The notes under the pieces were generated by a model. It was not told where the DNA came from and did not search any database. It worked only from the letters and a program-made list of their open reading frames with translations. From an uncultured virus (IMG/VR IMGVR_UViG_3300028920_000028) (Duplodnaviria > Heunggongvirae > Uroviricota > Caudoviricetes), in IMG/VR virus record IMGVR_UViG_3300028920_000028: a stretch of 57,259 nucleotides of DNA, one strand, 5' to 3'. Shown one piece after another: positions 1,226 to 42,501 of this stretch. Numbering within the stretch: the first letter of the stretch is position 1; every line of letters starts with the position of its first letter. The position numbers and the translations under genes are program-made.

Positions 1226-1833
1226 CGCGCCCCCCCGTCGTGCGTTATGAAGTAGTTGCCTGGGATGGCCGTGCCCGGGTAGGGCGCGAAGTCCAGCTTG
1301 AACCCGGGCATCACCCCCCATATGTCCCTGATAACGTCCTCGTCCGGCGTCCACAGGTGCTGGGGGTTCCCCCTGTGATCCTGGTCGGGGAGAGACACGA
1401 TGACCCCCTTCACCGCCAGATCCCGCATCCTCTCGGCGCAAACCCTCACCTCGTCCAGGGGCATATGCTCGAGCGTCTCGAAGCACATGACCGCGTCGTA
1501 CGCGCCGGGGAGGTCCAAGTCGGCGAAGTACCCCTCGTGCACCGCGTACCTTATGAAGTTGCGGTCGGCGTACCTGCGCGCCGCCGCGGCCAGGTCGGGT
1601 ATCAATTCCACGCCCTCGACCTTGAAGCCCTTCCCTATGAGAAGGAAGTCGAGCCACCCGTCGTAGCTGCCGATGTCCAAGGCGGTTTCGGCGCCGATTT
1701 CCTTGAGAAAGCCGGTCGCCTTGAGGTAGTGGTTTGCGTCCCGGACATTGCCCATGTGGGCCATCGGGTTCGGGAGGTAGCCCCCCGGCAGCCGCACCGA
1801 GTGCGCCCGGATCCGCTCCGTCCTGTCCCTCAT
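1222..1833 (-). CDS. Class I SAM-dependent methyltransferase
   Basis: ALDIGSYDG motif I, GVEL motif II, YDAVMCFETLEHM. Confidence 0.85.
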   Translation of the reverse strand: MRDRTERIRAHSVRLPGGYLPNPMAHMGNVRDANHYLKATGFLKEIGAETALDIGSYDGWLDFLLIGKGFKVEGVELIPDLAAAARRYADRNFIRYAVHEGYFADLDLPGAYDAVMCFETLEHMPLDEVRVCAERMRDLAVKGVIVSLPDQDHRGNPQHLWTPDEDVIRDIWGVMPGFKLDFAPYPGTAIPGNYFITHDGGAR

Positions 1834-2477
1834 GGCATCCCCACCCATTCAAAGTCCCCCGTCCCCTCGTCCCACAGCACCGCGTGGCTCCATCCGTACC
1901 CGAGGCCTATGGTCCTGACGCCCCCGTAGTCGTAGACGCCGTAGTAGTGGTGGTGCCCGAACGCGTGCAGCCTCGGCCTCAGCAGCGCCGCGAGCCCGGA
2001 CACCTCCGGCTTCCCCCTGTCAGACCACTTGCCGTCCGGCGGGTACGGCGACGGGGCCTCGTGCGTGAGCAGTATGTCCGCCCCCTTCGCGTCCGACGTT
2101 ATAGCTTCTATCTCCTCGCGCAGATAGTGCCTGTCCCGGCTCCCCGGCACGTTCGCCCGCGTCTCCCCGAACCATTTGGGGGAGAAGTTGCCCCCCAAGG
2201 CGGCCACCCTGATCGCGGCGCCGCCCACATCGAACTCGTAGATGTTCCCGTTTCTCATGAACGGGCCGCGGGGCGCCTCCCCCATCCCGCGCAGCGCCGC
2301 CCAATTCTCGTGGTTGCCCTGGATGAAGTGGAAGTTCCCCGGGAGATCCGGCGGGTACTCCAGCCCCTCCCCCCCGAAGTCCCCCACCTGGAGCCAGAGG
2401 CCCACGTCCGGGAGGCCCGACATCATCTTGAGGGCGTCCCCGAACTTCCCGTGGACGTCCCCCAGCAACCCGATCAT
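1830..2477 (-). CDS. Calcineurin-like metallophosphoesterase
   Basis: GDVHG, QVGDFG, GNHE, LLTHEAP, FGHHH motifs. Confidence 0.9.
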   Translation of the reverse strand: MIGLLGDVHGKFGDALKMMSGLPDVGLWLQVGDFGGEGLEYPPDLPGNFHFIQGNHENWAALRGMGEAPRGPFMRNGNIYEFDVGGAAIRVAALGGNFSPKWFGETRANVPGSRDRHYLREEIEAITSDAKGADILLTHEAPSPYPPDGKWSDRGKPEVSGLAALLRPRLHAFGHHHYYGVYDYGGVRTIGLGYGWSHAVLWDEGTGDFEWVGMP

Positions 2478-4037: not shown

Positions 4038-5772
4038 CCTTGGCCCTTCCCCGCCGCGACCGAACCCTGCCGTTGCCGCCGCCCCCGTGCGGGACGGCAG
4101 ATAACTTGACGTTACGCGAGCGGACGCCGCCGCTCACGACCGTTGTGGATCCCGCCAGGCGAAGTCTGCCCACAACCCCCTCTGCGGTTTTCTCGTCCGT
4201 CTTTGACGCCTCGTACGGGTCGTTGCCGCCGAAGTTGCACACCTGTATCGCCCGCTTCGACATGAGTATGGACTCCACCGCGGCCGACAGGCTCTCGTTC
4301 GTCACCTCGTCGCTGAGCAGGACGGCCTTCTCGACGAGCTCGCAGATGTCCGCCTGCGTCATCCCGTTTCCGATCACGGAGTCGAAGATGTCGGCGTCCA
4401 CGTCGCCGATGGCCGGGAACTCGGGGCGTATGGACTCGTCGGAGGACACAATCTTCCCGAACCTGGCCTCCATCACCTCGTAGGCCTCCTCCGCGGTCTG
4501 CGGGGGCTTGATGAGTATGACCTGGTCAAGGCGCCCGGGGCGGCTGATAAGCGTGTAGTGCACCAGCTTGGTGTCGTTGATGGTGGCTATGAAGACCGCG
4601 TTCAGGGACCGGTTCACGTCGTCTATGCAGTCCAGGAAGACACCGAGCCTCTCGTTCTTCTCGTCGAACCTGTACGAGTCGAGATCCTCCAGCACCACTA
4701 TGCACGGCTGCATGTAGGAGATGGTCTTGAAGGTCTCCTTGATCTCCCACGGCACGCCGAAGTTGTCGGCGCTCAGGTAGACCATCGGGAAGTCCCGGAG
4801 GGAGTCCTCCAGCTTTCGGATGATGGTGGACTTGCCCGTGCCGGGCACCCCGACGAACGCGTAGCCGCGCTTGCGCCCGCGCCGCAGCACCTTGCGCACC
4901 TCCGCCGAAAACGACGCGATGTCGTATTGGTTTATCCGCTCCCCGAAGGTCATTCGCCGCCGGGACCGCAGCCCCCTGCTTATGTGTATGACGTTGTTCG
5001 ACACGTCGAAGTGGCGCAGGAAGTCCTTGAAGACCGCGCTCTTGAGGCGCTCCCTCGCGGCGTCCACCGCGCTTTCCTCGTCCTCGGCCGGCGCGGGCAT
5101 CCCCGGATCCGCCCCCAGCACCATGGACGAGAGGTAGAATATGGTGGAGGCGGTGATGGTCAGCTTGTCGTCGAACTTGAGGTAGGACAGTTCCCACACG
5201 AACCTGCGGCCCTCGAAGTTGATGAGCACGAACACGTTGCCGTGCTCGACATCCCACATGTCCCGCGCGCTCTGGAGGTCGTCCTTGTAGAAACCCTCTA
5301 TCGCGAACTCCGTCGTCTTGGGCTTGCCGGAGATCCACAGGCAGATGTCCTTCCCCAGATCGAAGTTCGCGCTGACGAACACCTTGTCGTCGCCCTTCTC
5401 GGGGTCGCGGCACCCGAGCAGCCTGCGGACCTTGACTTCCTTTTCGTTGTAGACGTTGGGCTTCTCGGTCGTGACCCTGTGGAAGCGGCGGATCTTCGAG
5501 GCCAGGTGGCTTGTCAACACCACGGCCGGGGTGCCGTACTCCACGATGTCCATAACCCTCTTGATGCGCGGCCCCGCGAACCTCGTGCGCTTGGCGAACT
5601 TCGCCGTGGCGCGGGCGATGTCTATCAGAAAGGTGGGGGAGTTGTTGTAGGACGAAAGGAGATACTTCGCGAGGCCCCTCAGGTTTCTATCGTAGGAGGC
5701 CGCATTCTCCGCCCCCTCCACCGCGTGGTTGTCATTGCCCGGAACCTGTCCATCCATGTATAGAAGAGACAC
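4024..5772 (-). CDS. AAA+ ATPase with long N-terminal domain
   Basis: Walker A GVPGTGKS, Walker B VVLEDLD, SRH LISRPGRLD. Confidence 0.88.
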   Translation of the reverse strand: MSLLYMDGQVPGNDNHAVEGAENAASYDRNLRGLAKYLLSSYNNSPTFLIDIARATAKFAKRTRFAGPRIKRVMDIVEYGTPAVVLTSHLASKIRRFHRVTTEKPNVYNEKEVKVRRLLGCRDPEKGDDKVFVSANFDLGKDICLWISGKPKTTEFAIEGFYKDDLQSARDMWDVEHGNVFVLINFEGRRFVWELSYLKFDDKLTITASTIFYLSSMVLGADPGMPAPAEDEESAVDAARERLKSAVFKDFLRHFDVSNNVIHISRGLRSRRRMTFGERINQYDIASFSAEVRKVLRRGRKRGYAFVGVPGTGKSTIIRKLEDSLRDFPMVYLSADNFGVPWEIKETFKTISYMQPCIVVLEDLDSYRFDEKNERLGVFLDCIDDVNRSLNAVFIATINDTKLVHYTLISRPGRLDQVILIKPPQTAEEAYEVMEARFGKIVSSDESIRPEFPAIGDVDADIFDSVIGNGMTQADICELVEKAVLLSDEVTNESLSAAVESILMSKRAIQVCNFGGNDPYEASKTDEKTAEGVVGRLRLAGSTTVVSGGVRSRNVKLSAVPHGGGGNGRVRSRRGRAKVGRV

Positions 5773-6062: not shown

Positions 6063-6590
6063 CTAATCCCCCAACAGCTGCCCGAGGGCGTAGTCCCTGA
6101 GGATCATGGTGAGCAGGGCGGCCCCGAACCCTATGTAGGCCGCGTTCCTCTCGAGCCACGTGCGCCGGCTCTTCAGGTGCAGCCTGGCGATCTCCTGCTG
6201 GTAAAGCGACTCGGCCGCCAAAGCCTTGTCGTAGTACGACTTCATGAGGTACTCGCGGTACCTCAGCTCCCGCACGTGCCTGGGCCACGCGGCTTCGTAG
6301 TAGAGGCTCAAGGCCGCCTTGCGCTCGCTTATCAAAATGCCGCCGGGGATCTCCATGGTGTCCCCGTCCTCGGTGACGAGGGTGCCCGGGCCGACGGCGA
6401 TCGACTTGAAGTCCTCGTACGTCGAGTCCACGACGGCGCTGGTGTCCTGGTCGGCCAATGGCTGGATGCTGTCCAGCTCCAAATATTTTGGCATGAAGCT
6501 GTACTGAAGCGGCGGCTTGTCCAACGCCTGTTTGGGGGCGCAGGACGCAACCAACATGATTCCGAGCGTAAGCAGGATTGTACCTTTCAT
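6063..6590 (-). CDS. Lipoprotein with C-terminal TM helix, spanin-like
   Basis: MKGTILLTLGIMLVAS-C lipobox; C-terminal AAYIGFGAALLTMIL hydrophobic segment. Confidence 0.6.
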   Translation of the reverse strand: MKGTILLTLGIMLVASCAPKQALDKPPLQYSFMPKYLELDSIQPLADQDTSAVVDSTYEDFKSIAVGPGTLVTEDGDTMEIPGGILISERKAALSLYYEAAWPRHVRELRYREYLMKSYYDKALAAESLYQQEIARLHLKSRRTWLERNAAYIGFGAALLTMILRDYALGQLLGD

Positions 6591-7191: not shown

Positions 7192-7640
7192 TGCCCCGGC
7201 TCCTCCCCGGTGCGGGGCGCGCCCAACGCCCTCGCCACCCTCTCGTAGTCCTCCACCGCCTTCCGGCACCTGGCCACCACCCACGCCTCGATCCTTTCCC
7301 ACTCCTCGGGTGTCATGTCGCCGAGGCCGGTGACCGAGCCGCCGGCCCTGCTGGCGCTGCGGTCGTCTATCACCAAGTCGGCGAGTACCTTCGACCTCCC
7401 CAGCGGGCCGTCCCCGATGGACCGGTTCACGGCGTCGAACTCGAGTCCCTGCATCCGGCAGTACTCCACCGCCCCCTCGAGGCCGTACATGGGTTCGCGG
7501 CACGTGGACAGGATGACCCGGCACCCGAACTCCCCCTTGAACCTCTTGAGGATCTCGATGGCGCGACCGATGGGCGGCCCGACCTCGGGGTAGCAATGCT
7601 TCACTATGGTCCCGTCGAAGTCGACGGCTATCGTCAGCAC
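7188..7640 (-). CDS. HAD-superfamily phosphatase
   Basis: IAVDFDGTIV motif I, ILSTCR motif II, K..ADLVIDDR motif III/IV. Confidence 0.88.
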   Translation of the reverse strand: MLTIAVDFDGTIVKHCYPEVGPPIGRAIEILKRFKGEFGCRVILSTCREPMYGLEGAVEYCRMQGLEFDAVNRSIGDGPLGRSKVLADLVIDDRSASRAGGSVTGLGDMTPEEWERIEAWVVARCRKAVEDYERVARALGAPRTGEEPGQ

Positions 7641-8932
7641 GGCGTCAGTCCCTCTCGCTCACGATCATCTCGACGGGTATGTTCACGCGGTTCGCCTGCC
7701 CGAGCGCCGAGAAGACGGGGGCCATCGAGTGGTCGATGCCCCGTAGCTTCTGCCGCATCAACACTATCGGCGAACCGATCTTGTGGGCTGGCGGGCAGTT
7801 CCTGGCCACCTCGCCGTCCATCCGCTTCATCAACGCCACCTTGGCGCCTACGGTCATGTCCCTCATCCTCATCCTCCATGACGTTGCCCGTGGGCCTCGT
7901 GCGCCTGTGCAGCGCCTTGCGCAGCCCGCGCAGATTGCCCCTCCGGTATGATATGGCGTCCCCGAACTCCTTGGGGAAACGCCTCCTCGCCTCGATGGCG
8001 AACTCCCTCATCTCCGCGCCCGCCCCCACCGCCGACTGCACCTCCGCGGCCATCCCGGCGGCGCGGGCCACGCCGGACTCGATACGGCCCTCCACCGCCG
8101 CCTTGATCCTGTCCGAGTCCCCACGGAACTCCTCCGGGATGCCCTCCAGGTATCTTTGGGGTATCGCCCCGAGGGCGGGGTCGTAGGCCTCCCAGAAGGC
8201 CAGCGGAGTCATGCGCGACACCATCTTGTGTATCCGGCAGTACTCCTCCCCCTTGATTTTGACCTTGAGGCCGTTGGAGAAGGTCACGACGCAGCCCTCC
8301 CGGTTCCCGGGGAGCGCCCTTATGTGTTCGGCAAGGGCCTCCAGCGACCCGAAGTCCGGCAGGAGCGGGGCAACGCGCACGCCCATCCAAGCCGCCTCCG
8401 ACGACAGCCTGTCGTGCGGCATCTCCCGGCCGGTCTCGATCTCGACGGCGCCGAGGAGGACGAGGCCCTCGAAGTCGTACGATATCACTATCTTGCGGCT
8501 GTAGATGATCTCGAACAGGTACGTGTAGCCGGAATCCATGGCGTCCGCGCGCACGTTTTCCCCGAACCACCGCTGGCCCCATTGCGCCATCTCCGAGTCG
8601 AACGACCCCCTCGTCGCTATGCGGTGCGCCCCCATCCAGCGGAAGTGGACGCCCAGGTAGCCGTCCAGCTTCTCCTGCGCGGTGAATGGCAGGTCGGGGA
8701 GGTTCTCGTACCTCGTCTCCTCGACCTCGTTGAGGTTGAAGAACTTGGACCAGGGGCGCGCCACGCACTCCCCCGACCGCTCGTCCAATATGAGGCCGCG
8801 TGCGGAGCGGGTGTACTCGTCCCACAGGGAGCCGTAGACGGCGGCGTGGTCGTAGTTGAGGATGGCCAGGCCGTCCTTGAACCTCTTGAGCACGTGCGGG
8901 TGCTCCAGATATGCCTTCACATCGTAGACCAT
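7634..8932 (-). CDS. T4 Rnl1-like RNA ligase
   Basis: ARGLILD, KFFNLNE, EKLDG (motif I), FEII, EGCVV, KVKIKGEEY. Confidence 0.9.
   Translation of the reverse strand: MVYDVKAYLEHPHVLKRFKDGLAILNYDHAAVYGSLWDEYTRSARGLILDERSGECVARPWSKFFNLNEVEETRYENLPDLPFTAQEKLDGYLGVHFRWMGAHRIATRGSFDSEMAQWGQRWFGENVRADAMDSGYTYLFEIIYSRKIVISYDFEGLVLLGAVEIETGREMPHDRLSSEAAWMGVRVAPLLPDFGSLEALAEHIRALPGNREGCVVTFSNGLKVKIKGEEYCRIHKMVSRMTPLAFWEAYDPALGAIPQRYLEGIPEEFRGDSDRIKAAVEGRIESGVARAAGMAAEVQSAVGAGAEMREFAIEARRRFPKEFGDAISYRRGNLRGLRKALHRRTRPTGNVMEDEDEGHDRRRQGGVDEADGRRGGQELPASPQDRFADSVDAAEATGHRPLDGPRLLGARAGEPREHTRRDDREREGLTPC
7645..7872 (-). CDS. Hypothetical protein overlapped by the RNA ligase tail
   Basis: GGAGG RBS; natural composition, unlike the overlapping ligase-frame tail. 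Confidence 0.55.
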   Translation of the reverse strand: MRMRDMTVGAKVALMKRMDGEVARNCPPAHKIGSPIVLMRQKLRGIDHSMAPVFSALGQANRVNIPVEMIVSERD

Positions 8933-13874: not shown

Positions 13875-14226
13875 TGGTGGAGGTGCGGAGAGTCGAACTC
13901 CGGTCCGCGAAACGATCCATGAAGGCCTCTTCACATGCTTGTCCGGCCTGGTTAACCGTCAGCAGGGACCGGCGCCCGCCGACGGTGGCTGTGCACTGGA
14001 TCTCGGCCTCGGCGCGCGCACAGGCGCCTTCGGCCCAGTCACTGTATTGACCCTCCCCAGGCTACTGTGACCCCTGGCCCGGTTCAGGGAAGCCGCAACT
14101 AGGCAGCTTCGGCGTAGCTGTACTCTTCGGCAGTTGTTTACCGGGTCGGCTTGTTACGCGGCCAACCGACCAACCGCGGCATGCAGCCTACAATTCACGC
14201 CACACGTCGAAACCAAATACACCCCC
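13875..14226 (-). ncRNA. ssrA: tmRNA (352 nt), tag AEEYSYAEAA*
   Basis: 5' GGGGGUGUAUUUGGUUUCGAC; 3' CGGAGUUCGACUCUCCGCACCUCCACCA; acceptor stem with G3.U wobble; tag frame 14131..14099. Confidence 0.96.
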
Positions 14227-14242
14227 ACATTGTCAAAGAACG

Positions 14243-14506: not shown

Positions 14507-15145
14507 CTAGGTTTCCTCGATCCTGAAATCCCCGAGCGTGATGACGTAGCTTTTCCTCTCCTTGCGCACGGCGTACCGTATGATGGCCTCCGTGGCGACG
14601 GCGACCGCCAGCATGATTGTGTTGCGGGCGAGCGGGTAGTCGCACACGTCCGGCTCCGTCGTGTCCTTCGGCACCCGGTACGACTCGTTCCAGATGACCT
14701 CCGCGTAGTCCTTGGCCAGCCCGACATGCAGGCAGTCCGTCCCGGTCTCCGCGCAGTACCCGGCCACGAGGGCCCGGCTGGCGCTGTTGTCGAAGCCGTC
14801 CACGACCAGCGTGGGCGTCCCGATCACTTTCACCGCGTTGCGCTCCTCGAGTCGCTGCGTCACGGCCTCGAGGGCCGCCCCGCAGGACGCGAACGCCCCG
14901 TTCTTGAGCATGGTCGCCTTGTACTGCCCGACCTCGCGGCGCGTCCACACCTGGGTGGGGATGTTGTGCACCTCGACGCGATCCATGTCCACGACGCGTA
15001 TGGCCCGGAAGCCCTGGCGGACCATGTTGTCCACCAAGTTCGAGCCCACGGCCCCGGCGCCGCACACGGTCACCGGAAGGGCCGCTATGGTCTGCATGGC
15101 GGCATTGCCCCTGTAGGCCGCCTCGTGCGCCAGCATGTCAGCCAT
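14507..15145 (-). CDS. ThiF/E1-like ubiquitin-activating adenylyltransferase
   Basis: VCGAGAVGS, VVDMDRVEVHNIPTQ, GQYKA, VVDGFDN..SR; lone C-terminal Cys in DVCDYP; no CxxC Zn pairs. Confidence 0.92.
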   Translation of the reverse strand: MADMLAHEAAYRGNAAMQTIAALPVTVCGAGAVGSNLVDNMVRQGFRAIRVVDMDRVEVHNIPTQVWTRREVGQYKATMLKNGAFASCGAALEAVTQRLEERNAVKVIGTPTLVVDGFDNSASRALVAGYCAETGTDCLHVGLAKDYAEVIWNESYRVPKDTTEPDVCDYPLARNTIMLAVAVATEAIIRYAVRKERKSYVITLGDFRIEET

Positions 15146-15317
15146 CTTTGGCTCCTTTCCCCCTCTTGCCCCTGCTCGGCCTGTAGTAGCTGCAGTTCTG
15201 CCCCTTCTTGGGCGCCCTCTTCAGCAGCGAGATGACGAGGCAGTTCGAATGGTACTCGCAGTCCGTGTACGGGCACCTCGGGGCGCCCGCCCCCGTTTCC
15301 CCGTGTCCCCCGCTCAT
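15138..15317 (-). CDS. Small Cys/His-rich protein (59 aa)
   Basis: Hand translation MSGGHGETGAGAPRCPYTDCEYHSNCLVISLLKRAPKKGQNCSYYRPSRGKRGKGAKDG; overlaps both neighbours. Confidence 0.6.
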   Translation of the reverse strand: MSGGHGETGAGAPRCPYTDCEYHSNCLVISLLKRAPKKGQNCSYYRPSRGKRGKGAKDG

Positions 15318-15739
15318 TCCGCCCCCGGCGCGCTGACGTCCCTTCCGTCGAACATCGATCCGAGCGTGACCCTGCCGACCCTGAGGAGGCCGGCGCGCAC
15401 CCAGCGCATCTCATACCGGATGAACCGATACGGCATGTCGGCGCGCCTCCTGTACACGAAATACCGTGTCGACGCCCCGCACGTCACGCCGCAGACCATC
15501 GGTGCGCCTGACGCCACCACCCACGACCGCATCGTCTTGTCGTCCGTGGCGCTGGGCGTGTCGAACTTCTCGCCGGGGTGGGTGTGCCTCCAGCCGACCA
15601 GCGACCTGTCGTCCCAGGCCCTTTCCCAGTCGAAACCCACGTCGCCGGCGCCGCCCCTCGAAACATGCCTCTCGCGCCAGACCCACGTGCGCCCCAGGCG
15701 CGCCCCGCGCATGAACCAGCATTCCTCGGCGAACGGCAT
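15314..15739 (-). CDS. JAB/MPN+ metalloprotease (deubiquitinase-like)
   Basis: N-terminal Glu (EECW) and GWRHTHP......PSATD JAMM motif. Confidence 0.88.
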   Translation of the reverse strand: MPFAEECWFMRGARLGRTWVWRERHVSRGGAGDVGFDWERAWDDRSLVGWRHTHPGEKFDTPSATDDKTMRSWVVASGAPMVCGVTCGASTRYFVYRRRADMPYRFIRYEMRWVRAGLLRVGRVTLGSMFDGRDVSAPGAE

Positions 15740-24553: not shown

Positions 24554-26128
24554 CTATTTGAGCGGGCGCCGCCGCCTGAGCGGCTCGTCCATGATTTCAA
24601 ACACGAGGTCGAGCCTGCTCTTCCTCGCCAGCAGCTGCACGATCCCCGGGAGGCCGTAGTAATCCCCGTCCTCCGGCTCGTAGCGGTCGTACTCGATCCC
24701 CGCCCCCGTAAGCGAGTCCGACAGGTTGCGGTACTGCCGCCTGCCGACCCGTATGATGACCACGTGCGGGGCGACGCCCGTCTCGCGCTCATAGACGCGG
24801 TAGACCTGCGCGAAGCTCGGCGAGCAGTTCTCGCCCTCGTCGGTGACGAAGACGATCTGCTCCGCCACGAATCCCTTGTGCATCAGATAGCGCAGGGCGC
24901 AGCCCATGGACGTCTGGCTGTGGGGCCGGACGGGCATGAACGCGCGCTCCCAGTCGGACATCTCCCTGCCCTCCGACTCGACCTCCAGGGGCTGGTCGTT
25001 GAAAGCCACGACCTTGAGATCCGCCTCCGTCGCGCCGGACACGATTGCGGCCAGGCGCTTGCCGACCTCAATCGCCTCGTACATGCTGCCCGACCTGTCC
25101 ACGAATATCGCCGTGGGCAGCGTGATGGAGCCTTGGCGCTTGATCTGCTTGTCGGCGACCTTGTCCAGCTTCTTGGCCGTCTCGGCGTCCTTGACCCTGC
25201 CGGTGGCGACCGCGGTCTTGGACTTCAGCGCCGAGACGCCCTTGGCCGTCTGGGCCTTCTTCAGCTTCTTGTCGACGACGGCCTTGATCTCGGGCACGTC
25301 CATGGCGCCGCGCTCCTCCAGGGAGGCGATGTTGTTGATCACCTCCTGCGGCGACATGTTGTTCGCGAGGGCCGCGAGTATGCTCGGGGTCACCTTCTCC
25401 ACGAGCCCGACGGCCACCGTGTACGGGATCTTGTGCTCGACGATGAGCCTCGCGGCCTCCTCGGGCGTCGGGGCCTCCTGGATCCGCTTGGTGACCTCCA
25501 GCTTGCTGTCGGACGGCCGGTCGCCCTCGAACAGTATCTTCTGAGCCCTGTCGCCCGGCTTGATCTGCAGGCCCTTCACCCTGTACAGGTTCTTCAAGTC
25601 GAAGAACGACCGGACGGCCATGGCGTCGAACACCTTCGGCTTGCCCTCGAGCCACCGCAGGTACTGCGTGACCTCCCTCTTCAAACACCCGGGGACGTTC
25701 GTGTGCAGCCCGGCGTCCACCTCGGAGACGCGCACCTTCTCGATTGACTTGCCGCGGCGCACCATCTTCTCGCCGGTCTTGGTGCGCACCTTGACCTTCT
25801 TGCCCTTGATGAACCCGACGACCTTGTTCTTCATGAACAGGGGCATGTCCCGGAACAGGGCCAGCCCCACCTCGCGGTTCTCGAGGTACGGGTCGGTCAG
25901 GAGCATGGCCGTGAACACCTCCTTGTGGTCGCGGATGCCGGAGCCCGCGCGGTCGTACCAGCACGCGAGGTGCGCGTAGAAGAGGGGATCCTGCTCGCGG
26001 ACGTTGCCGTGTATCTCCTTGATCTTGTCGGTGTCCCGGTGGGGGCAGCTCATGAACGCGTTCAGCAGCGCGAGCCTGTTGTCCGCCTGGGCCTCCTCCG
26101 GCTGCCCCGCGGCCGCATTCCTGTTCAT
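24554..26128 (-). CDS. Ro60/TROVE-like protein with C-terminal vWA domain
   Basis: Helical N-terminal region (DPLFYAHLACWY, LIVEHKIPY, MSPQEVINNIASL); vWA MIDAS FVDRSGSM, T (QTSM), VTDEGEN. Confidence 0.8.
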   Translation of the reverse strand: MNRNAAAGQPEEAQADNRLALLNAFMSCPHRDTDKIKEIHGNVREQDPLFYAHLACWYDRAGSGIRDHKEVFTAMLLTDPYLENREVGLALFRDMPLFMKNKVVGFIKGKKVKVRTKTGEKMVRRGKSIEKVRVSEVDAGLHTNVPGCLKREVTQYLRWLEGKPKVFDAMAVRSFFDLKNLYRVKGLQIKPGDRAQKILFEGDRPSDSKLEVTKRIQEAPTPEEAARLIVEHKIPYTVAVGLVEKVTPSILAALANNMSPQEVINNIASLEERGAMDVPEIKAVVDKKLKKAQTAKGVSALKSKTAVATGRVKDAETAKKLDKVADKQIKRQGSITLPTAIFVDRSGSMYEAIEVGKRLAAIVSGATEADLKVVAFNDQPLEVESEGREMSDWERAFMPVRPHSQTSMGCALRYLMHKGFVAEQIVFVTDEGENCSPSFAQVYRVYERETGVAPHVVIIRVGRRQYRNLSDSLTGAGIEYDRYEPEDGDYYGLPGIVQLLARKSRLDLVFEIMDEPLRRRRPLK

Positions 26129-26181: not shown

Positions 26182-26258
26182 GCGGGGATGTTCCCGAACG
26201 GGAACATCCCCGCCCCGTTGCCTTGAAACCTCAACCGATGTTCCCGACCGGGAACATC
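26182..26258. repeat. Twin palindromes GATGTTCCCGANCGGGAACATC, 50 bp apart
   Basis: Copies at 26187-26208 (extends to a 14-bp stem, 26182-26213) and 26237-26258 differ by one base. Confidence 0.9.
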
Positions 26259-26514
26259 AGCCGAACACGGCCTGCGGCCGGACGGTGACGTTTCCGGTCG
26301 GGCCGACATCGACGTGCATCTCCTGGAACTCCGAGAGCGGCCGGTCATAGTAGATGGCCAGCGCCATGTGGATCTGCGCCGGCGTCACATTCTGCGGAGT
26401 CGGCTTAGTGCCAGACGGGATGCCGATGGTGTTGTAGTCCGACGGCTGGAACAGATCCTCGAACTCGATGTCCTCCGAACGACCCTCGTACTTCACGTGC
26501 ACCATGTTGGACAT
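26257..26514 (-). CDS. Ubiquitin-like (beta-grasp) protein ending in Gly
   Basis: 85 aa: beta-hairpin VHVKYEGRSEDIEF, helix PAQIHMALAIYY, terminal strand NVTVRPQAVFG-COOH; AAGGAGG RBS. Confidence 0.7.
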   Translation of the reverse strand: MSNMVHVKYEGRSEDIEFEDLFQPSDYNTIGIPSGTKPTPQNVTPAQIHMALAIYYDRPLSEFQEMHVDVGPTGNVTVRPQAVFG

Positions 26515-26592: not shown

Positions 26593-26630
26593 CCGAAAAT
26601 CTCAACTTTTTTACACGGCCCGGACGCAGA

Positions 26631-26661
26631 AAGGGCCGGGAAACTGGGTTCCCCGGCCCTT
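26631..26661 (-). terminator. GC-rich hairpin, probable end of the ncRNA transcript
   Basis: AAGGGCCGGG/CCCGGCCCTT stem followed by a short U-rich run. Confidence 0.6.
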
Positions 26662-26694
26662 GCACAGACGCCCTACCAAGATGTCATAAAAGAA

Positions 26695-26870
26695 GGCTCT
26701 TCGGTATCAATCCCCGCCCGAGTCTCGGATGCGTGTGCCCCGCCTTCCCTTAATCGGGTTGGCAGGGCGTTCGTCCCGACAGGCACTCATGGCCTGCCGG
26801 AACTGTCTTATCACTGTCCATGATAGATGTACGCCCCCGCATAGAGGACAGAGACTGATATCAAAGAGCC
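26695..26870 (-). ncRNA. Structured RNA module 2 (Y-RNA-like), 176 nt
   Basis: 26846-26870 pairs with 26695-26719 (24 of 25 positions, counting GU); encloses GGGGCGUACAU and three hairpins. Confidence 0.7.
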
Positions 26871-26876
26871 GTCTCC

Positions 26877-27039
26877 GGCTCTTCCTTATTCAAGACGGCA
26901 CGAGTCGCTGGTGCGTGTTTTGGATTGCATCCAGGGATATGATCCCCGAACCTCTTGGTTGATAGCCAAGCGCTCTACCCAATTGAGCTAAATGCATGTA
27001 CGCCCCAACCTGGAGCGCCGTCCTGAATGAGAAAGAGCC
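26877..27039 (-). ncRNA. Structured RNA module 1 (Y-RNA-like), 163 nt, enclosing a tRNA-like domain
   Basis: 27015-27039 pairs with 26877-26901 (24 of 25 positions, counting GU). Confidence 0.72.
26921..26997 (-). tRNA. Aberrant tRNA-like cloverleaf, anticodon AUC, encoded CCA
   Basis: AUGCAUU UA GCUC AAUUGGGUA GAGC G CUUGG CUAUCAA CCAAG AGGUU CGGGG AUCAUAU CCCUG GAUGCAA U CCA. Confidence 0.75.
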
Positions 27040-27051
27040 AAACGCTGACCA

Positions 27052-27080
27052 AATATACCAACATCAAGCGGGATTGTCAA
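27052..27080 (-). promoter_or_regulatory. sigma70 promoter TTGACA-N17-TATATT driving the ncRNA
   Basis: Perfect -35 and 17-bp spacer; predicted TSS about 27045. Confidence 0.85.
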
Positions 27081-28261
27081 CCCCTGTATGTCGATTCCCC
27101 GTCGAGCATGGTGATGCTGTACCTGCTCTCCTTGCCGATCTCCTCCCGCCAGCCCTTCTTGCGCAGCTGGATGGGCATCCTCCACGTCAGCCCGTAGGTG
27201 GGGTGGACGCCCAACAGCCACTGGTAGGGCTCCGAGAAGGCGCCGATGCGCTCGAGTGCGAACTCGTCGGTGGCCATCCACGAGCCGTTGATGATCGTCT
27301 CGCCCGTCGTGTGCTGCTGCGTGGCCATCGTGTGGAAGTGCCCGAAGAGGTAGTAGTGGGGCACCTGCCCCGACACCGTCCCGATGGCGTTCAGTCGGCG
27401 CGTCTTGCGCTCGATGCCGTACCATGGGAGACTGTTCCAGCTCCGTATGTCGTCCCCGTGGTTCAGCACGAAGTTCCAGTCGTAGACGGAGAGGATCATC
27501 GACCAGGTATCCGGGCACACGATCTCCAGGCGCCCCTCCTCGACGAGGCCCCTCAGCCGCGCCGCCGCGTGCGCCACCACGAGGTAGTCCCAGTTGTCGT
27601 GGGCGCCGCGGAAGTCCTTCTTCGGGGTCTTGCGGCCGTGGTTGCCGGACACGCTGCAGAAGACGATCTTGGGGAAGTAGCGGCTGAGGTCGGTGATCAT
27701 CATCGCGATCAGCTCGCCCATGCCCATGGCGTTCTTCAGGGAGTTGCGCCACTTGCTGTGCTCGGTGGCCCCGTGTATCTCCCCGCTGACGTAGTCGCCG
27801 AGCCCGGAGATGTACAGGGTCTCGAACTTGTACGCCTTCATGTTGTCCACGAGGTGGGAGATGGTCGTGTCGACTATCCTCTCCGCCCTCTGGCAGGCCA
27901 CGTCGAACCCGAACTCCTCCAAGCCCCTGACCCTCTTCGGGAGGATCTCCTGGTCGCCGTGGCTGTCGGACAGGACGAGCATGGCGGACTCGGTGATCTG
28001 CGACTTCCTTCCCATGATGGAACTGTAGGGGGCGAAGGTGGAGAACGGCGCCTGATCCTCGATGAGCGGGGCCAGGCTCTTGAAGAGCGTGGACTCCCTC
28101 TGCGCCCTCTTCAGCTCCGCGCCGAGCCTCCGGTTCTCGTCCTGCAGCCTCCTGATGTCCTCCTGGGCCGAAAGCTCGTAGGAGCCCTCGTCGTCCGTGC
28201 CGTTGGCCGAGATTTTCCTGACCAGCTTGAGCCTCTTCGCGAAGTTTTTGGGTTTTGGCAT
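27077..28261 (-). CDS. Calcineurin-like phosphoesterase with N-terminal coiled coil
   Basis: LSDSHG, LGDYVSG, SGNHGR, NHGD, FGHFH. Confidence 0.85.
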   Translation of the reverse strand: MPKPKNFAKRLKLVRKISANGTDDEGSYELSAQEDIRRLQDENRRLGAELKRAQRESTLFKSLAPLIEDQAPFSTFAPYSSIMGRKSQITESAMLVLSDSHGDQEILPKRVRGLEEFGFDVACQRAERIVDTTISHLVDNMKAYKFETLYISGLGDYVSGEIHGATEHSKWRNSLKNAMGMGELIAMMITDLSRYFPKIVFCSVSGNHGRKTPKKDFRGAHDNWDYLVVAHAAARLRGLVEEGRLEIVCPDTWSMILSVYDWNFVLNHGDDIRSWNSLPWYGIERKTRRLNAIGTVSGQVPHYYLFGHFHTMATQQHTTGETIINGSWMATDEFALERIGAFSEPYQWLLGVHPTYGLTWRMPIQLRKKGWREEIGKESRYSITMLDGESTYRG

Positions 28262-28440
28262 TGGTGCTTCCTTCCGGTGTGGTGCGCCTCCTACAACCAA
28301 TTTACTAACTCGGCGCACCTAAATTAAAGGAAAACATGAGGGTTAGCTGTTTCGGACCCTATCGAAAACGGCATGAACGAATTATTAAGATGTCAAGGCC
28401 GGGGGCTCTCGGAATGATGTATTAATACCTGGGCTAATAC

Positions 28441-41216: not shown

Positions 41217-41738
41217 TCAGGCGAATATCTGCTCGGTCCGAATGCACTCCATGACATGCGACAAGTCGCTGTCCCTAGCCAAGTTGAACACGGGAATGCC
41301 ATAATGGGACGCAACCCGCAGAGCCTGCGCCGTGCCGCCGACCCTCCGTCCGCCGCTCGTCCAGCACACGATGAACCTGGAAGGGTCGTCGAGACCCCTG
41401 CCGAGCACTTGGTAGCAGTTGCGGGCATGCAGTTCGCGCGCGCCCGTGGACAGGGCATCCCATGCCGGGTGGAACGACTCCGCCATTTTGAGGGCCGCCT
41501 CGTCCACGCCCTCATATGGGGAGGTTCTGGTGTTGAAGCCCCGCCAGGGCAGATACACCTCCTTCATCGACCCGTCCGAAACGCCGGCCTCGAACGCGGC
41601 GTCGGCCCCGACCGCGCCCCCGGAGCGCAGGACGTACCCCCTGCGCTCCAGAAAGTACGCGATGCGGGTCATCAACTTCATGACCTCGAAAGGCGTCCGC
41701 CTGCTACCCACGCCCGTGTAGCACGGCCTAGAATGCAA
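41217..41738 (-). CDS. DprA/Smf-like (SLOG) Rossmann protein
   Basis: YTGVGSRRTP, LRSGGAVGAD, HARN..QVLG, GGTAQALRVA; probable TTG start. Confidence 0.8.
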   Translation of the reverse strand: MHSRPCYTGVGSRRTPFEVMKLMTRIAYFLERRGYVLRSGGAVGADAAFEAGVSDGSMKEVYLPWRGFNTRTSPYEGVDEAALKMAESFHPAWDALSTGARELHARNCYQVLGRGLDDPSRFIVCWTSGGRRVGGTAQALRVASHYGIPVFNLARDSDLSHVMECIRTEQIFA

Positions 41739-42501
41739 AGACCTGTCCCTTCGCGACGAAATCCGCGAAACCGTCCTGCTTGGCATTGGGAAGGCCCTCG
41801 GCGTCGCCGTTCCAATGATAGAGGTACATCTTGGCCTTCTGCTCTTTTGGAAGCCCCTTCAAGTCCTCATAATGGGCGTGCACCCCGGACGCAAACGGGG
41901 CGGTCTCACAGTCATGGAACACGACATCAGCGTCGGCGATGAAGTCTTTCAGCTGCGCCGGGGCGAACTGCGTATCCGATGTGATGAACACCTTGGCGCC
42001 GTGCTCCGTCGTAATCATCAGCCCGAAGGACTTCACAAAGGTGGTGTCCGCCACCACATGCACAGTCTGCACCGTCTTGCAATGGATGCCGTCGAAGTCG
42101 AACGACCCGCTGTTCGGCAGCTTCACGACATCGAAAAACGTGTCGAGGGTGCTGTCCATCATCTGGATGGAATCGAGACCCCCCTTCAGGCTGTGGTGCC
42201 ACAGGTCATGAAGAAGCTTGGAGTTGCCGTACAACACGGGCTTGAATCCGGTCTTCACCGTTTTCACGAAATAGTTGGTGAAGGCGACATACTCCAGCCC
42301 CCCGACATGGTCGGCGTGAAGATGGGATATGTAGACGGCGTCGATATCCAAGGCCGTGAGTTCCTTCTCCCTGAGCGCCCATCGGATGTCGCCCCCGCAG
42401 TCGAATAGCATCCTCTTTCCGCTCTCACCCGTCAGCAGCATGTTGCTCTGGTAGTTGTCGACCGTGAACGCGGATCCGCTTCCCAAAAATGTTATGTGCA
42501 T
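41728..42501 (-). CDS. Metallo-beta-lactamase-fold hydrolase (RNase Z/cyclic phosphodiesterase-like)
   Basis: FLGSGSAF, DCG, SHLHADHVGG, TSDT, HAHY. Confidence 0.9.
   Translation of the reverse strand: MHITFLGSGSAFTVDNYQSNMLLTGESGKRMLFDCGGDIRWALREKELTALDIDAVYISHLHADHVGGLEYVAFTNYFVKTVKTGFKPVLYGNSKLLHDLWHHSLKGGLDSIQMMDSTLDTFFDVVKLPNSGSFDFDGIHCKTVQTVHVVADTTFVKSFGLMITTEHGAKVFITSDTQFAPAQLKDFIADADVVFHDCETAPFASGVHAHYEDLKGLPKEQKAKMYLYHWNGDAEGLPNAKQDGFADFVAKGQVFAF

What the first reader, a model, noticed from the sequence alone, without database searches (positions are those of the whole stretch)
26921..26997. tRNA mimic with AUC anticodon, non-canonical T-loop and A1:A72 mismatch, embedded in a larger RNA
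Seen: intact D arm, perfect anticodon stem, 5-bp T stem and encoded CCA, but T-loop AUCAUAU instead of UUCGAAU, a first-pair mismatch, U73 and anticodon AUC. Known: bacterial tRNA-Asp uses GUC (Q34) with G73, and A34 Asp tRNAs are essentially absent. Unlike YrlA, this cloverleaf is not permuted. Inference: not a decoding tRNA but a decoy or effector domain (e.g. bait for anticodon nucleases or uncharged-tRNA sensors); a decaying pseudo-tRNA is also possible.
Basis: partly seen in the sequence, partly recalled or inferred. Interest (0 to 1): 0.72.

Follow-up and report, generated by a model that had tools for sequence, protein, structure and literature searches.

The report
Stalked tRNA look-alike in huge phage
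A large uncultured phage encodes a well-kept but rule-breaking tRNA look-alike mounted on a ribosomal-RNA-style processing stem, one of a family of such cassettes that probably act as tRNA mimics and not as ordinary decoders.

Summary
A 77-nt cloverleaf lies at 26997..26921 on the minus strand, with anticodon AUC, T-loop AUCAUAU, an A1/A72 mismatch, U73 and an encoded CCA (ARAGORN; Rfam tRNA 49.5 bits). It has its own sigma70-type promoter. Leader and trailer pair around it into a stalk of about 30 bp, and a second stalked, non-tRNA cargo and a terminator follow.

Every contig of this huge-phage clade that extends past the neighbouring exonuclease gene (14, some duplicates) carries an array of the same cassettes. 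Each cassette has a boxA-like element, a covarying leader-trailer helix, invariant GCNUACAU and ACUYG motifs, and a variable tRNA-shaped cargo.

The odd features are not decay. The T-loop is shared with one relative across compensatory stem changes, and the A/A mismatch, U73 and CCA recur under unrelated anticodons. A34 anticodons recur (AUC, AUU, AAU, AAC), and the anticodon changes on conserved bodies.

Two orthologues lack an acceptor stem. One related 466-kb phage already has 47 ordinary tRNA genes elsewhere.

My best reading (about 0.5) is a non-decoding tRNA mimic, made through a pre-rRNA-like route, that acts as bait for tRNA-targeting host factors. A nuclease-resistant decoding tRNA remains a serious rival. 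No RNA data exist.

The parts
27052..27080 (-). Sigma70-type promoter: TTGACA, 17-nt spacer, TG-extended TATATT. The predicted start is about 27045, at the base of the stalk.
   Evidence: 11 of 12 hexamer positions match; 2 promoter-like sites in 1.4 kb against 0.3 expected. An equivalent promoter lies 73-90 nt upstream of the first module in 12 of 13 related loci.
27028..27038 (-). boxA-like element of module 1 (GCUCUUUCUCA), at the base of the leader strand.
   Evidence: 2 mismatches to GYTCTTTAANA, the gamma-proteobacterial boxA consensus (passage read in PMC5725501). An element in the same register occurs in 33 of 38 non-redundant modules.
26998..27044 (-). Leader (5') strand of the module 1 stalk. 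It holds the long helix P1, the internal-loop motif CUCCA, the short helices P2 and P3, and the start of the invariant GCGUACAU (26996-27003), whose last two bases are tRNA positions 1-2.
   Evidence: Fold. Consensus structure and covariation: 9 of 11 P1 pairs changed on both sides, and 0 of 500 shuffles reached the observed score. GCGTACAT occurs 5 times in the window against 1.1 expected.
26921..26997 (-). The flagged 77-nt tRNA-shaped cargo: anticodon AUC, T-loop AUCAUAU, A1/A72, U73, CCA.
   Evidence: Its orthologues are aligned.
26872..26920 (-). Trailer (3') strand of the module 1 stalk: AAACA, CGCA (P3), CCAGC (P2), the GACUC loop motif and the 3' strand of P1.
   Evidence: The flank-to-flank duplex is -62.5 kcal/mol, z -6.8.
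26695..26870 (-). Module 2, with the same scaffold: boxA-like GCUCUUUGAUA at 26859-26869, GCGUACAU at 26827-26834 and CGCA..GACUCG at 26719-26734. Its cargo (26734-26826) is a 93-nt three-hairpin RNA that is not a tRNA.
   Evidence: Fold -103.2 kcal/mol, z -7.6. Motifs. The hairpin with loop CAUGAGU is shared with the second module of L096. ARAGORN and Rfam call nothing there.
26627..26660 (-). Terminator-like hairpin (14-bp G+C-rich stem, then UUUCU) that closes the two-module RNA unit.
   Evidence: RNAfold of 26620-26675 (-) gives -34.2 kcal/mol. Sequence. The consensus scanner missed it. The next gene (26514..26257) has its own promoter-like site.

Best explanation
The 77-mer is a selected tRNA-shaped RNA that does not follow tRNA rules. 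Its D arm, variable loop and position match the phage tRNA-Asn(GUU) found at this place in distant relatives, so it most likely derives from that lineage.

It is the cargo of a cassette built like a miniature pre-rRNA: a host sigma70 promoter, a boxA-like element, and a leader-trailer helix of about 30 bp with conserved internal motifs (CUCCA/GACUYG and GCNUACAU/CGCA). A clade of huge phages carries arrays of such cassettes between an Mre11-type exonuclease gene and a small conserved gene. The cargos range from near-normal tRNAs to tRNA bodies without acceptor stems, circularly permuted tRNAs and bare anticodon-like hairpins.

Shown here: the cloverleaf, the stalk, the boxA-like element and the odd positions are conserved or covary.

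Inferred pathway: host RNA polymerase transcribes the array early. The boxA-like element recruits Nus factors, which protects the untranslated transcript from Rho. The leader-trailer helix brings the ends together, and host RNase III cuts it.

Inferred role: the product is a non-decoding tRNA mimic. Its exposed anticodon arm and elbow compete for, or trap, host factors that attack tRNA anticodon loops. A34 replaces the G34/Q34 of the QUN-anticodon tRNAs that some anticodon nucleases recognise.
For: 1. It is a real and selected structure. Rfam tRNA scores 49.5 bits. The window and L001 keep an identical D arm and T-loop AUCAUAU, while 3 of 5 anticodon-stem pairs and T-stem pairs changed on both sides.

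2. The stalk is real. z is -5.7. Across 15 modules 96% of cells pair against 69% in shuffles, 30 of 37 pairs have double changes, and 0 of 500 shuffles reach the observed score. The flank duplex is present in 8 of 8 clade tRNAs tested (z -5.6 to -8.8) and absent in 15 of 15 free-standing tRNA-Asn(GUU) genes of distant relatives (z -1.8 to +2.0).

3. A boxA-like 11-mer sits in a fixed register in 33 of 38 non-redundant modules, 3 of them perfect matches (consensus from the passage). Sigma70-type promoters stand upstream of the first module in the window and in 12 of 13 related loci.

4. The acceptor end does not track the anticodon. Pair 1:72 is mismatched in 8 of 15 modules (A/A in 6), and U73 occurs in 8 of 15. 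A1/A72 + U73 + CCA occurs with AUC, UCC, UAC and an 8-nt loop.

5. Orthologues of the first module, with the same D arm and anticodon stem, lack an acceptor stem. L100-3041 (loop CUAUUAA) and L097-2448 match Rfam tRNA only over model positions 7-64 and carry a 3' hairpin instead.

6. The anticodon changes on conserved bodies: AUC/AUU/UCU in one orthologous group and UCC/UAC/UUU in another. L097 and L098 differ at 14 of 4329 bases, and one of those differences is anticodon base 36 (AAU versus AAC). In my reading, non-U33 or 6- and 8-nt loops occur in several cargos.

7. The cassettes are redundant with ordinary tRNAs. The 98%-complete 466-kb relative holds 47 ordinary tRNA genes in a separate cluster, including Asn-GUU, Asp-GUC, Leu-UAA and Ile-GAU. 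A34 occurs there only in Arg-ACG and Leu-AAG. None of these genes has the flank motifs.

8. A T4 Rnl1-type RNA ligase is encoded within about 13-19 kb of the array in the window, G001 and G002. Repair of tRNA cut by an anticodon nuclease is this enzyme's classical role (stated for coliphage rnl genes in a passage of PMC10264068).
Against: There is no RNA evidence of any kind: no RNA run holds the locus. Transcription, ends, charging and modification are therefore untested.

NCCA follows the acceptor stem in 9 of 15 aligned modules, including this one. In two permuted cargos CCA also follows the acceptor 3' strand. This is what genes for tRNAs matured to a chargeable end look like.

A pre-rRNA-type stalk is normally removed, so 'embedded' may describe only the precursor.

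Several sister cargos look like ordinary decoders (Leu-UAA, Ile-GAU, Val-UAC, Gln-UUG; Rfam 59-63 bits).

GAU is the commonest U-ending codon in the window's genes, which fits a GAU reader.

The acceptor-less orthologues could be decayed copies.

The sample is small and partly redundant: L096 and L102, L097 and L098, and L100 and L101 are near-duplicates, and L002 = L109.

No tRNA-targeting nuclease of any host is known, because the host is unknown. That AspRS needs G34, G73 and C38 is recalled knowledge and was not tested.
Confidence: 0.5

Rival explanations
1. It is a working decoder that resists nucleases. RNase III, RNase P and 3' trimming release a mature tRNA from the stalk. It is charged despite A34 and U73, by a host or phage enzyme, and reads GAU. 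A34 and the altered T-loop protect it from host anticodon nucleases that deplete the G34/Q34 tRNAs.
For: The cloverleaf and tertiary positions are intact and CCA is encoded. NCCA is present in 9 of 15 modules. Sister cargos have ordinary anticodons and Rfam scores of 59-63 bits. GAU is the top U-ending codon in the window: 236 GAT among 16,695 codons. The published hypothesis holds that phage tRNAs carry anticodon-loop changes to escape tRNases such as PrrC, VapC and colicins D and E5 (PMC10264068, abstract and passages). A pre-rRNA-like stalk is compatible with release (PMC10250234 passages).
Against: The A34 anticodon matches the commonest U-ending codon in only 1 of 3 phages with large samples. 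GAT is top in all three, while G001 carries AUU and G002 carries AAU. G001 already encodes Asn-GUU and Asp-GUC. The same acceptor end (A/A, U73) serves unrelated anticodons. Orthologues lack acceptor stems. The window T-loop lacks the U54/A58 pair. A34 in a two-codon box risks misreading if deaminated (recalled knowledge).
Confidence: 0.25
2. The functional unit is the scaffold or the whole two-module transcript. The tRNA shape serves only as a folding, stability or RNase P/Z 'punctuation' device, so its anticodon and acceptor details are free to drift.
For: The most invariant letters are in the flanks (UCUUU, CUC, GCNUACAU, GC, ACUYG), not in the cargo loops. Cargos of very different kinds sit in the same scaffold, down to 29-37-nt hairpins. 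The anticodon drifts.
Against: Anticodon arms stay perfectly paired through compensatory change: 5 of 5 pairs have double changes and 100% of cells pair. In every tRNA-derived cargo type I read, the anticodon arm was the part kept free, wherever the stalk attaches (acceptor end, D-loop or variable region). A34 recurs instead of varying at random.
Confidence: 0.1
3. It is a decaying pseudo-tRNA, a relic of the tRNA-Asn(GUU) gene that distant relatives carry after the exonuclease gene.
For: 16 of the 51 distant loci scanned have tRNA-Asn(gtt) downstream of the exonuclease gene, and the D arm and variable loop resemble them. The acceptor tops of the orthologues L096 and L001a are imperfect and lack CCA.
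Against: There are compensatory changes in the anticodon and T stems between the window, L001 and L096. The deviant T-loop is shared. The cassette keeps its own conserved promoter, boxA-like element and covarying stalk. All 14 close relatives that extend beyond the exonuclease gene keep arrays.
Confidence: 0.06
4. It is an uncharged-tRNA signal. A tRNA that cannot be charged but carries CCA would engage T-box leaders or ribosome-bound RelA and so reprogram host amino-acid or stringent responses.
For: The elbow is intact, NCCA is present and the anticodon is defined. Features that should block charging are present (plus recalled identity rules).
Against: Orthologues without CCA or without an acceptor stem could not act this way. 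The host is unknown. No T-box or specifier evidence exists.
Confidence: 0.05

Closest known systems
Phage tRNAs with anticodon-loop changes proposed or shown to evade host tRNases. Sources: PMC10264068 (abstract and passages read). PMC11464382 (T5 tRNA against PARIS) and PMC11555353 (tRNAs against retron effectors) were seen only as search listings with the start of their abstracts.
   Same: It is phage-encoded. It is a tRNA-shaped RNA whose deviations cluster at the nuclease-relevant wobble region. It occurs with a T4 Rnl1-type ligase in the same genomes.
   Different: Those are chargeable decoders with standard anticodons and free-standing genes. This one has A34 in a two-codon box, U73, a 1:72 mismatch and an altered T-loop, and it sits inside a conserved boxA-plus-stalk cassette. 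Some of its orthologues have no acceptor stem.
YrlA and bacterial or phage Y RNAs (Chen et al. 2014, PMC4201824, abstract and passages read; Rfam YrlA)
   Same: A tRNA-like module is carried on a long helix formed by the RNA's two ends. The family occurs in phages and is thought to be non-decoding. Some sister cargos (the L002 module at 6558, L104-5450 and L104-5609, L105-4505) have the T arm, sealed acceptor and D arm order.
   Different: There is no Rfam hit other than tRNA in the window or in 9 related loci. No TROVE/Ro60 gene is found in the window's 72 ORFs or in G001 and G002. The window cloverleaf is not permuted and keeps a full anticodon arm. The stalk carries boxA-like and GCNUACAU/ACUYG motifs; no Ro60-binding helix was identified.
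Pre-rRNA units of bacterial rrn operons: boxA plus a leader-trailer helix cut by RNase III (PMC10250234 and PMC5725501, passages read)
   Same: A boxA-like element stands directly before the leader strand of a helix of about 20-30 bp. That helix encloses a stable RNA and covaries. Transcription is from a sigma70-type promoter.
   Different: Here the enclosed RNA is a tRNA-shaped cargo of 30-110 nt, one per helix, repeated 2-7 times per array. boxC was not found. Nus binding and RNase III cutting are untested. The additional invariant motifs have no rrn counterpart that I could establish.
Circularly permuted tRNA genes of red algae and archaea (recalled; mentioned in the PMC3326292 abstract seen in a search listing)
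   Same: Sister cargos L100-3796 and L105-4312 are permuted in the D-loop and have NCCA, an intervening hairpin and a 5' acceptor strand. When rotated in silico, ARAGORN recognises them as tRNAs.
   Different: The window element is not permuted. I saw no bulge-helix-bulge motif in the consensus structure. Joining is hypothetical.

Membership tests
Canonical bacterial elongator tRNA-Asp | Cloverleaf with standard tertiary positions (U8, A14, R15/Y48, G18G19, A21, U54/A58, U55, C56) | tested here: inconclusive
   All are present except 54/58, which reads A54/U58. Rfam tRNA scores 49.5 bits. The 45 tRNAs in the ordinary cluster of relative G001 score 32-71 bits, 37 of them above 52.
Canonical bacterial elongator tRNA-Asp | Anticodon GUC (G34, modified to Q) | tested here: not met
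   The anticodon is AUC. The ordinary tRNA-Asp of relative G001 is gtc.
Canonical bacterial elongator tRNA-Asp | Paired 1:72 and discriminator G73 (AspRS identity; recalled) | tested here: not met
   A1/A72 is unpaired and position 73 is U.
Canonical bacterial elongator tRNA-Asp | Aminoacylation with Asp and decoding of GAY codons | not testable with these tools
   No RNA or biochemical data exist; no RNA run holds the locus.
YrlA / Y RNA | Match to the curated YrlA or Y RNA covariance models | tested here: not met
   Only RF00005 (tRNA) is significant in the window region. Other hits have E 0.23 or worse. In related loci nothing but tRNA reaches gathering score.
YrlA / Y RNA | Partner Ro60/Rsr (TROVE) gene nearby | tested here: not met
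   There is no TROVE hit among the window's 72 ORFs or in G001 and G002, while the control rang in Deinococcus and Bacteroides. A host-encoded Ro60 cannot be excluded.
YrlA / Y RNA | tRNA-like head with sealed acceptor, in which the stem replaces the anticodon arm | tested here: not met
   The window cloverleaf has the normal order, an open acceptor end and a full anticodon arm.
rrn-type boxA + leader-trailer processing unit | boxA element upstream of or at the base of the leader strand | tested here: met
   GCUCUUUCUCA has 2 mismatches and GCUCUUUGAUA has 1 mismatch to GYTCTTTAANA. 33 of 38 modules have at most 2 mismatches in register. Binding of NusB/NusE was not tested.
rrn-type boxA + leader-trailer processing unit | Long covarying helix between leader and trailer enclosing the stable RNA | tested here: met
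rrn-type boxA + leader-trailer processing unit | Cleavage by RNase III and Nus-dependent antitermination | not testable with these tools
   No phage RNase III gene is found in G001 or G002, so a host enzyme would be needed.
Nuclease-evading phage decoder tRNAs | Anticodon-loop substitutions relative to the targeted host tRNA, with decoding retained | not testable with these tools
   Host and host tRNAs are unknown: no genome is held, and the genome-contig scan found no array.

The most novel reading that the evidence does not exclude
These huge phages carry a previously undescribed RNA cassette system. Arrays of 'mini pre-rRNA' units (boxA, leader-trailer helix, GCNUACAU/ACUYG junction) mass-produce a fast-evolving repertoire of anticodon-arm baits. 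These baits include A34 or N33 variants, bodies without acceptor stems and sealed tRNA bodies, and they neutralise tRNA-targeting immunity. In some members the D-loop-permuted cargos are matured into real tRNAs by removal of the stalk and sealing by the phage Rnl1-type ligase. That would be the first permuted tRNA genes in a bacterial virus.
Probability: 0.15. Interest if true: 0.9.

Novelty: new variant of a known kind. Interest (0 to 1): 0.74.

Why it matters
tRNA cleavage is now recognised as a common antiphage strategy, and phage tRNAs as a counter-measure. This locus suggests a different tactic: a dedicated array that supplies tRNA-shaped RNAs whose anticodon loops diversify while their bodies stay fixed, and that is expressed in the style of host rRNA.

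If the cargos are baits, they are natural RNA inhibitors of tRNA-targeting effectors, and their anticodon repertoire would report which tRNAs the hosts attack.

If they are decoders, they would be the first A34 tRNAs for Asp, Asn and Ile in a bacterial system, and the first tRNAs individually wrapped in boxA/leader-trailer units.

In both cases the scaffold is a conserved RNA-processing signal that has not been characterised, and it can be tested in laboratory bacteria.

Tried and rejected
- Own genome: none is held.
- Close phage relatives in GenBank phages: none. Only a 58-nt tRNA-to-tRNA match to two Streptomyces phages.
- Exact 30-mer of the anticodon region in IMG/VR: 0 hits.
- Strict flank pattern in IMG/VR: 8 loci. 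Two are the contigs already found. The other 6 have no tRNA within the match and look like coding sequence, so I judged them chance hits.
- Same pattern in 185,579 species genomes: 44 single matches. None has a tRNA, a second module or a convincing boxA plus stalk. One (L216) is a 21-nt tandem repeat that happens to contain both motifs. No prophage or host was identified.
- Y-RNA reading: no Rfam hit and no TROVE gene.
- The 524-aa neighbouring ORF (24554-26128) as a hidden Ro60: no PDB sequence match better than E 0.39. It is conserved in synteny and remains unassigned.
- Ribozyme or other known RNA in the flanks: nothing below E 0.23.
- Codon compensation: the A34 anticodon fits the top U-ending codon in 1 of 3 phages only, and GAT is top in all.
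- Expression: no RNA holder is listed among the sequencing runs.
- attP or integration relic: rejected, because it is a complete tRNA-shaped gene with its own promoter and does not match a canonical tRNA.
- Literature: searches found no description of stalked or boxA-flanked phage tRNA-like arrays, of phage permuted tRNA genes, or of A34 Asp/Asn tRNAs. This covers only the held open-access library.
- UACAU as the recalled cleavage pentad of Bacillus and Staphylococcus MazF: noted and not testable. Only the title of a paper on a UACA-specific Deinococcus MazF was seen, in a reference list.
- A resemblance of the junction motifs to 23S rRNA 5' ends was recalled. Rfam reported no rRNA match in the region scanned, so I dropped it.
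Full report
OBSERVATION. The flagged interval holds a tRNA-shaped gene on the minus strand. ARAGORN reports tRNA-Asp(atc) at 26921-26997 (-), the only tRNA in the 57-kb window, beside a tmRNA at 13875-14226 (-). The Rfam tRNA model scores 49.5 bits (gathering score 29, E 1.3e-7) and marks only pair 1:72 as non-standard. All usual tertiary positions are canonical except 54/58 (A54/U58 in place of U54/A58).

CONTEXT. The window is a 63% G+C piece of a large phage. 64 of the 72 ORFs I called lie on the minus strand. They include family A DNA polymerase, DnaB, an SNF2 helicase, NAD ligase, ParB, a T4 Rnl1-type RNA ligase (7634-8932), Apyc1-like and ThiF/JAB proteins, and a baseplate-like protein. 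No whole genome is held, and GenBank phages hold no close relative. The tRNA lies between an Mre11-type exonuclease gene (27077-28318, phrog_284) and an 85-aa ORF (26257-26514).

THE LARGER RNA. A near-consensus sigma70 promoter (TTGACA, 17 nt, TG-TATATT; 11 of 12 positions) sits at 27080..27052. From about 27045 the leader pairs with the trailer around the cloverleaf: -80.1 kcal/mol, z -5.7, 0 of 200 shuffles as stable. A second unit follows directly (26870..26695; -103.2 kcal/mol, z -7.6). It has the same flanks but a 93-nt three-hairpin cargo that no tool calls a tRNA. A strong hairpin followed by UUUCU (26660..26627) ends the unit. GCGTACAT stands immediately 5' of both cargos, and ACGCA-N3-G-N-GACUCG stands 3' of both.

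RELATIVES. Searching with the exonuclease protein gave 2 close IMG/VR contigs: L001 (73% identity, 466 kb, 98% complete) and L002 (71%, 131 kb). It gave 17 close metagenome loci at 63-80% identity, with G+C of 36-59%. All 14 close loci that extend past the exonuclease gene carry arrays of 1-7 of the same cassettes on the same strand. A strict regular expression finds modules in 12 of 19 close loci on the plus strand and in none on the minus strand. L103 and L111 have variant or truncated modules, and the other five end too early; in L112 an intein-like insertion in the gene uses up the contig. Among 141 distant loci (0.91 Mb) the expression hits once, in coding sequence. The synteny exonuclease, array, 85-aa ORF, 524-aa ORF is conserved.

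STRUCTURE OF THE SCAFFOLD. I aligned 15 tRNA-bearing modules. RNAalifold and pair counting give a long helix P1 in which 9 of 11 pairs changed on both sides. An internal loop follows, with invariant CUC(C)A on the 5' side and (G)ACUYG on the 3' side. Then come P2 and P3 (GCN/NGC), and a junction with invariant UACAU on the 5' side and an A-rich stretch before CGCA on the 3' side. The acceptor helix has only 5 consensus base pairs, and the D, anticodon and T stems are as in tRNA. Overall 96% of cells pair against 69% in shuffles, and 0 of 500 shuffles reach the observed covariation. The stalk is specific to this clade. Flank-to-flank duplex z-scores are -5.6 to -8.8 in 8 of 8 clade tRNAs tested. 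They are -1.8 to +2.0 in 15 of 15 free-standing tRNA-Asn(GUU) genes that distant relatives carry after the same exonuclease gene.

rRNA-STYLE LEADER. The published gamma-proteobacterial consensus is GYTCTTTAANA (passage in PMC5725501). 33 of 38 non-redundant modules carry an 11-mer with at most 2 mismatches at a fixed distance (31-45 nt) upstream of GCNUACAU, and 3 are perfect. In the whole window such matches number 34 on both strands together (21.3 expected), and the two module leaders are among them. boxA followed by a long covarying leader-trailer helix that encloses a stable RNA is the layout of pre-16S and pre-23S rRNA, whose helices are RNase III substrates (passages in PMC10250234). 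Sigma70-type promoters precede the first module in the window and in 12 of 13 related loci. I therefore read each cassette as a miniature pre-rRNA-like transcription and processing unit. Nus binding and RNase III cutting are inferred. The phages encode no RNase III (0 of 2).

ARE THE ODD POSITIONS DECAY? No. The first-module orthologues share the D-arm stems and the first six D-loop bases (window AUC; L001, L096 and L100 AUU; L097 UCU). Anticodon-stem pairs 28:42, 29:41 and 31:39 changed on both sides, and T-stem pairs changed too. The window and L001 share the exact T-loop AUCAUAU. The acceptor end is a family trait. Pair 1:72 is mismatched in 8 of 15 modules (A/A in 6), because A1 and U2 are the last letters of the invariant UACAU. 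U73 occurs in 8 of 15 and NCCA in 9 of 15. The combination A/A + U73 + CCA occurs under the anticodons AUC, UCC and UAC and under an 8-nt loop. ARAGORN calls A34 anticodons in the window (atc), in L001, L096 and L102 (att), in L002, L109 and L097 (aat), and in L098 (aac). L102 is nearly identical to L096, and L109 is the same contig as L002.

DECODER OR MIMIC? Evidence for a mimic:
- L100-3041 and L097-2448 are orthologues by D arm and anticodon stem. They have no 5' acceptor strand, carry a small hairpin after the T arm, and match Rfam tRNA only over model positions 7-64.
- Other cargos are sealed-acceptor permuted bodies, D-loop-permuted tRNAs, bodies with 6- or 8-nt loops or a non-U33, and short anticodon-like hairpins (my reading of the printed sequences).
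- In all the tRNA-derived types the anticodon arm is the part kept free.
- Anticodons change on conserved bodies. L097 and L098 differ at 14 of 4329 bases, one of which is anticodon base 36.
- G001 has 47 ordinary tRNA genes in a separate cluster. They lack the flank motifs, include Asn-GUU, Asp-GUC, Leu-UAA and Ile-GAU, and show A34 only in Arg-ACG and Leu-AAG.

Evidence for a decoder:
- The kept CCA.
- Ordinary-looking sister cargos.
- The removable nature of rRNA-type stalks.
- GAU is the commonest U-ending codon here. But GAT is commonest in all these phages, so the anticodon-to-codon match holds in only 1 of 3 large samples.

MECHANISM PROPOSED. Shown: the promoter-like and boxA-like elements, the covarying stalk, the conserved odd cloverleaf, the array family, and the Rnl1-type ligase in all three large records. 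Inferred: early transcription by host RNA polymerase with Nus factors, RNase III processing, and a product that is not charged. Its anticodon arm and elbow would engage host tRNA-directed factors, with A34 replacing the G34/Q34 that enzymes of the colicin E5 type depend on (the dependence on the wobble modification is stated in a PMC10264068 passage). I give the non-decoding mimic about 0.5, the nuclease-resistant decoder 0.25, a scaffold or punctuation role 0.1, decay 0.06 and an uncharged-tRNA signal 0.05.

COMPARISON WITH KNOWN SYSTEMS. It is not a member of tRNA-Asp: the anticodon, pair 1:72 and the discriminator tests fail. It is not YrlA: no model hit, no TROVE gene, not permuted, and the anticodon arm is present. 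It works most like a cross between phage anti-tRNase tRNAs and Y-RNA-type tRNA mimics, expressed in rRNA style. My literature searches found no description of such cassettes.

LIMITS. No RNA data exist. The host is unknown. There are about 10 independent lineages, several loci are near-duplicates, and some cargo readings are by eye. The aminoacyl-tRNA synthetase identity rules and the MazF motif are recalled knowledge. Supplements of the cited papers were not read.

Noticed in passing
window 26734-26826 (-): The cargo of module 2 is a 93-nt three-hairpin (cloverleaf-like) RNA that is not a tRNA. Its middle hairpin (GGCC-AUGAGU-GCC core, 7-nt loop CAUGAGU) is shared with the second module of L096. 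Related loops (CGUAAGU, CGUAUAAGU) occur in L001 and L100 cargos.
   Followed up: partly
L100:3796-3920; L105:4312-4430: These are D-loop-permuted tRNA cargos: 3' half, NCCA, an intervening hairpin, then the 5' acceptor strand and half of the D arm. Joining the cargo ends would recreate a canonical D arm. When rotated in silico, ARAGORN calls them tRNAs (CAU, and one with an odd loop).
   Followed up: partly
L002:6566-6655; L104:5458-5570 and 5617-5726; L105:4513-4600; L100:4014-4110: Sealed-acceptor, YrlA-like permuted tRNA bodies (T arm, closed acceptor, D arm) that, unlike YrlA, also keep an anticodon arm. They usually form the last cassette of an array. Rfam gives no YrlA hit.
   Followed up: partly
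window 14231-14241 (-), just before the tmRNA at 14226..13875: A boxA-like 11-mer (GUUCUUUGACA, 1 mismatch) lies 5 nt upstream of the phage tmRNA 5' end. No leader-trailer helix was examined there, and it may be chance: 6 sites in the window have at most 1 mismatch.
   Followed up: no
window, all 72 called ORFs: Codon use is odd for a 63% G+C genome. ATA (237) far exceeds ATT (37), and AGG (515) is the commonest Arg codon. ATA is also the top or a major Ile codon in relatives G001 and G002, and G001 encodes tRNA-Ile(tat).
   Followed up: partly
L177:3861-3937 (G001 tRNA cluster): ARAGORN calls a tRNA with anticodon CTA (labelled Pyl), a possible amber suppressor, among the 47 clustered tRNAs of the 466-kb relative. 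This hints at TAG reassignment or suppression in that phage.
   Followed up: no
L112:3390-4449; L110:3557-4516: In two relatives an insertion interrupts the exonuclease gene. In L112 the inserted reading frame looks like an intein or homing endonuclease by eye, and in L110 the protein match is split into two blocks.
   Followed up: no
window 7634-8932 (-), 1830-2477 (-), 41728-42501 (-), 14507-15739 (-): Counter-defence and RNA-repair-type genes: a T4 Rnl1-type RNA ligase, a calcineurin-like phosphoesterase, an Apyc1-like anti-Pycsar metallo-beta-lactamase-fold protein, and a ThiF plus JAB pair.
   Followed up: no
L216:1480-1800 (Acidobacteriota MAG contig): A 21-nt tandem repeat contains both GCGTACAT and AACTCG, like an 'empty' junction without cargo. 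It is probably coincidental or a coding heptad repeat.
   Followed up: no
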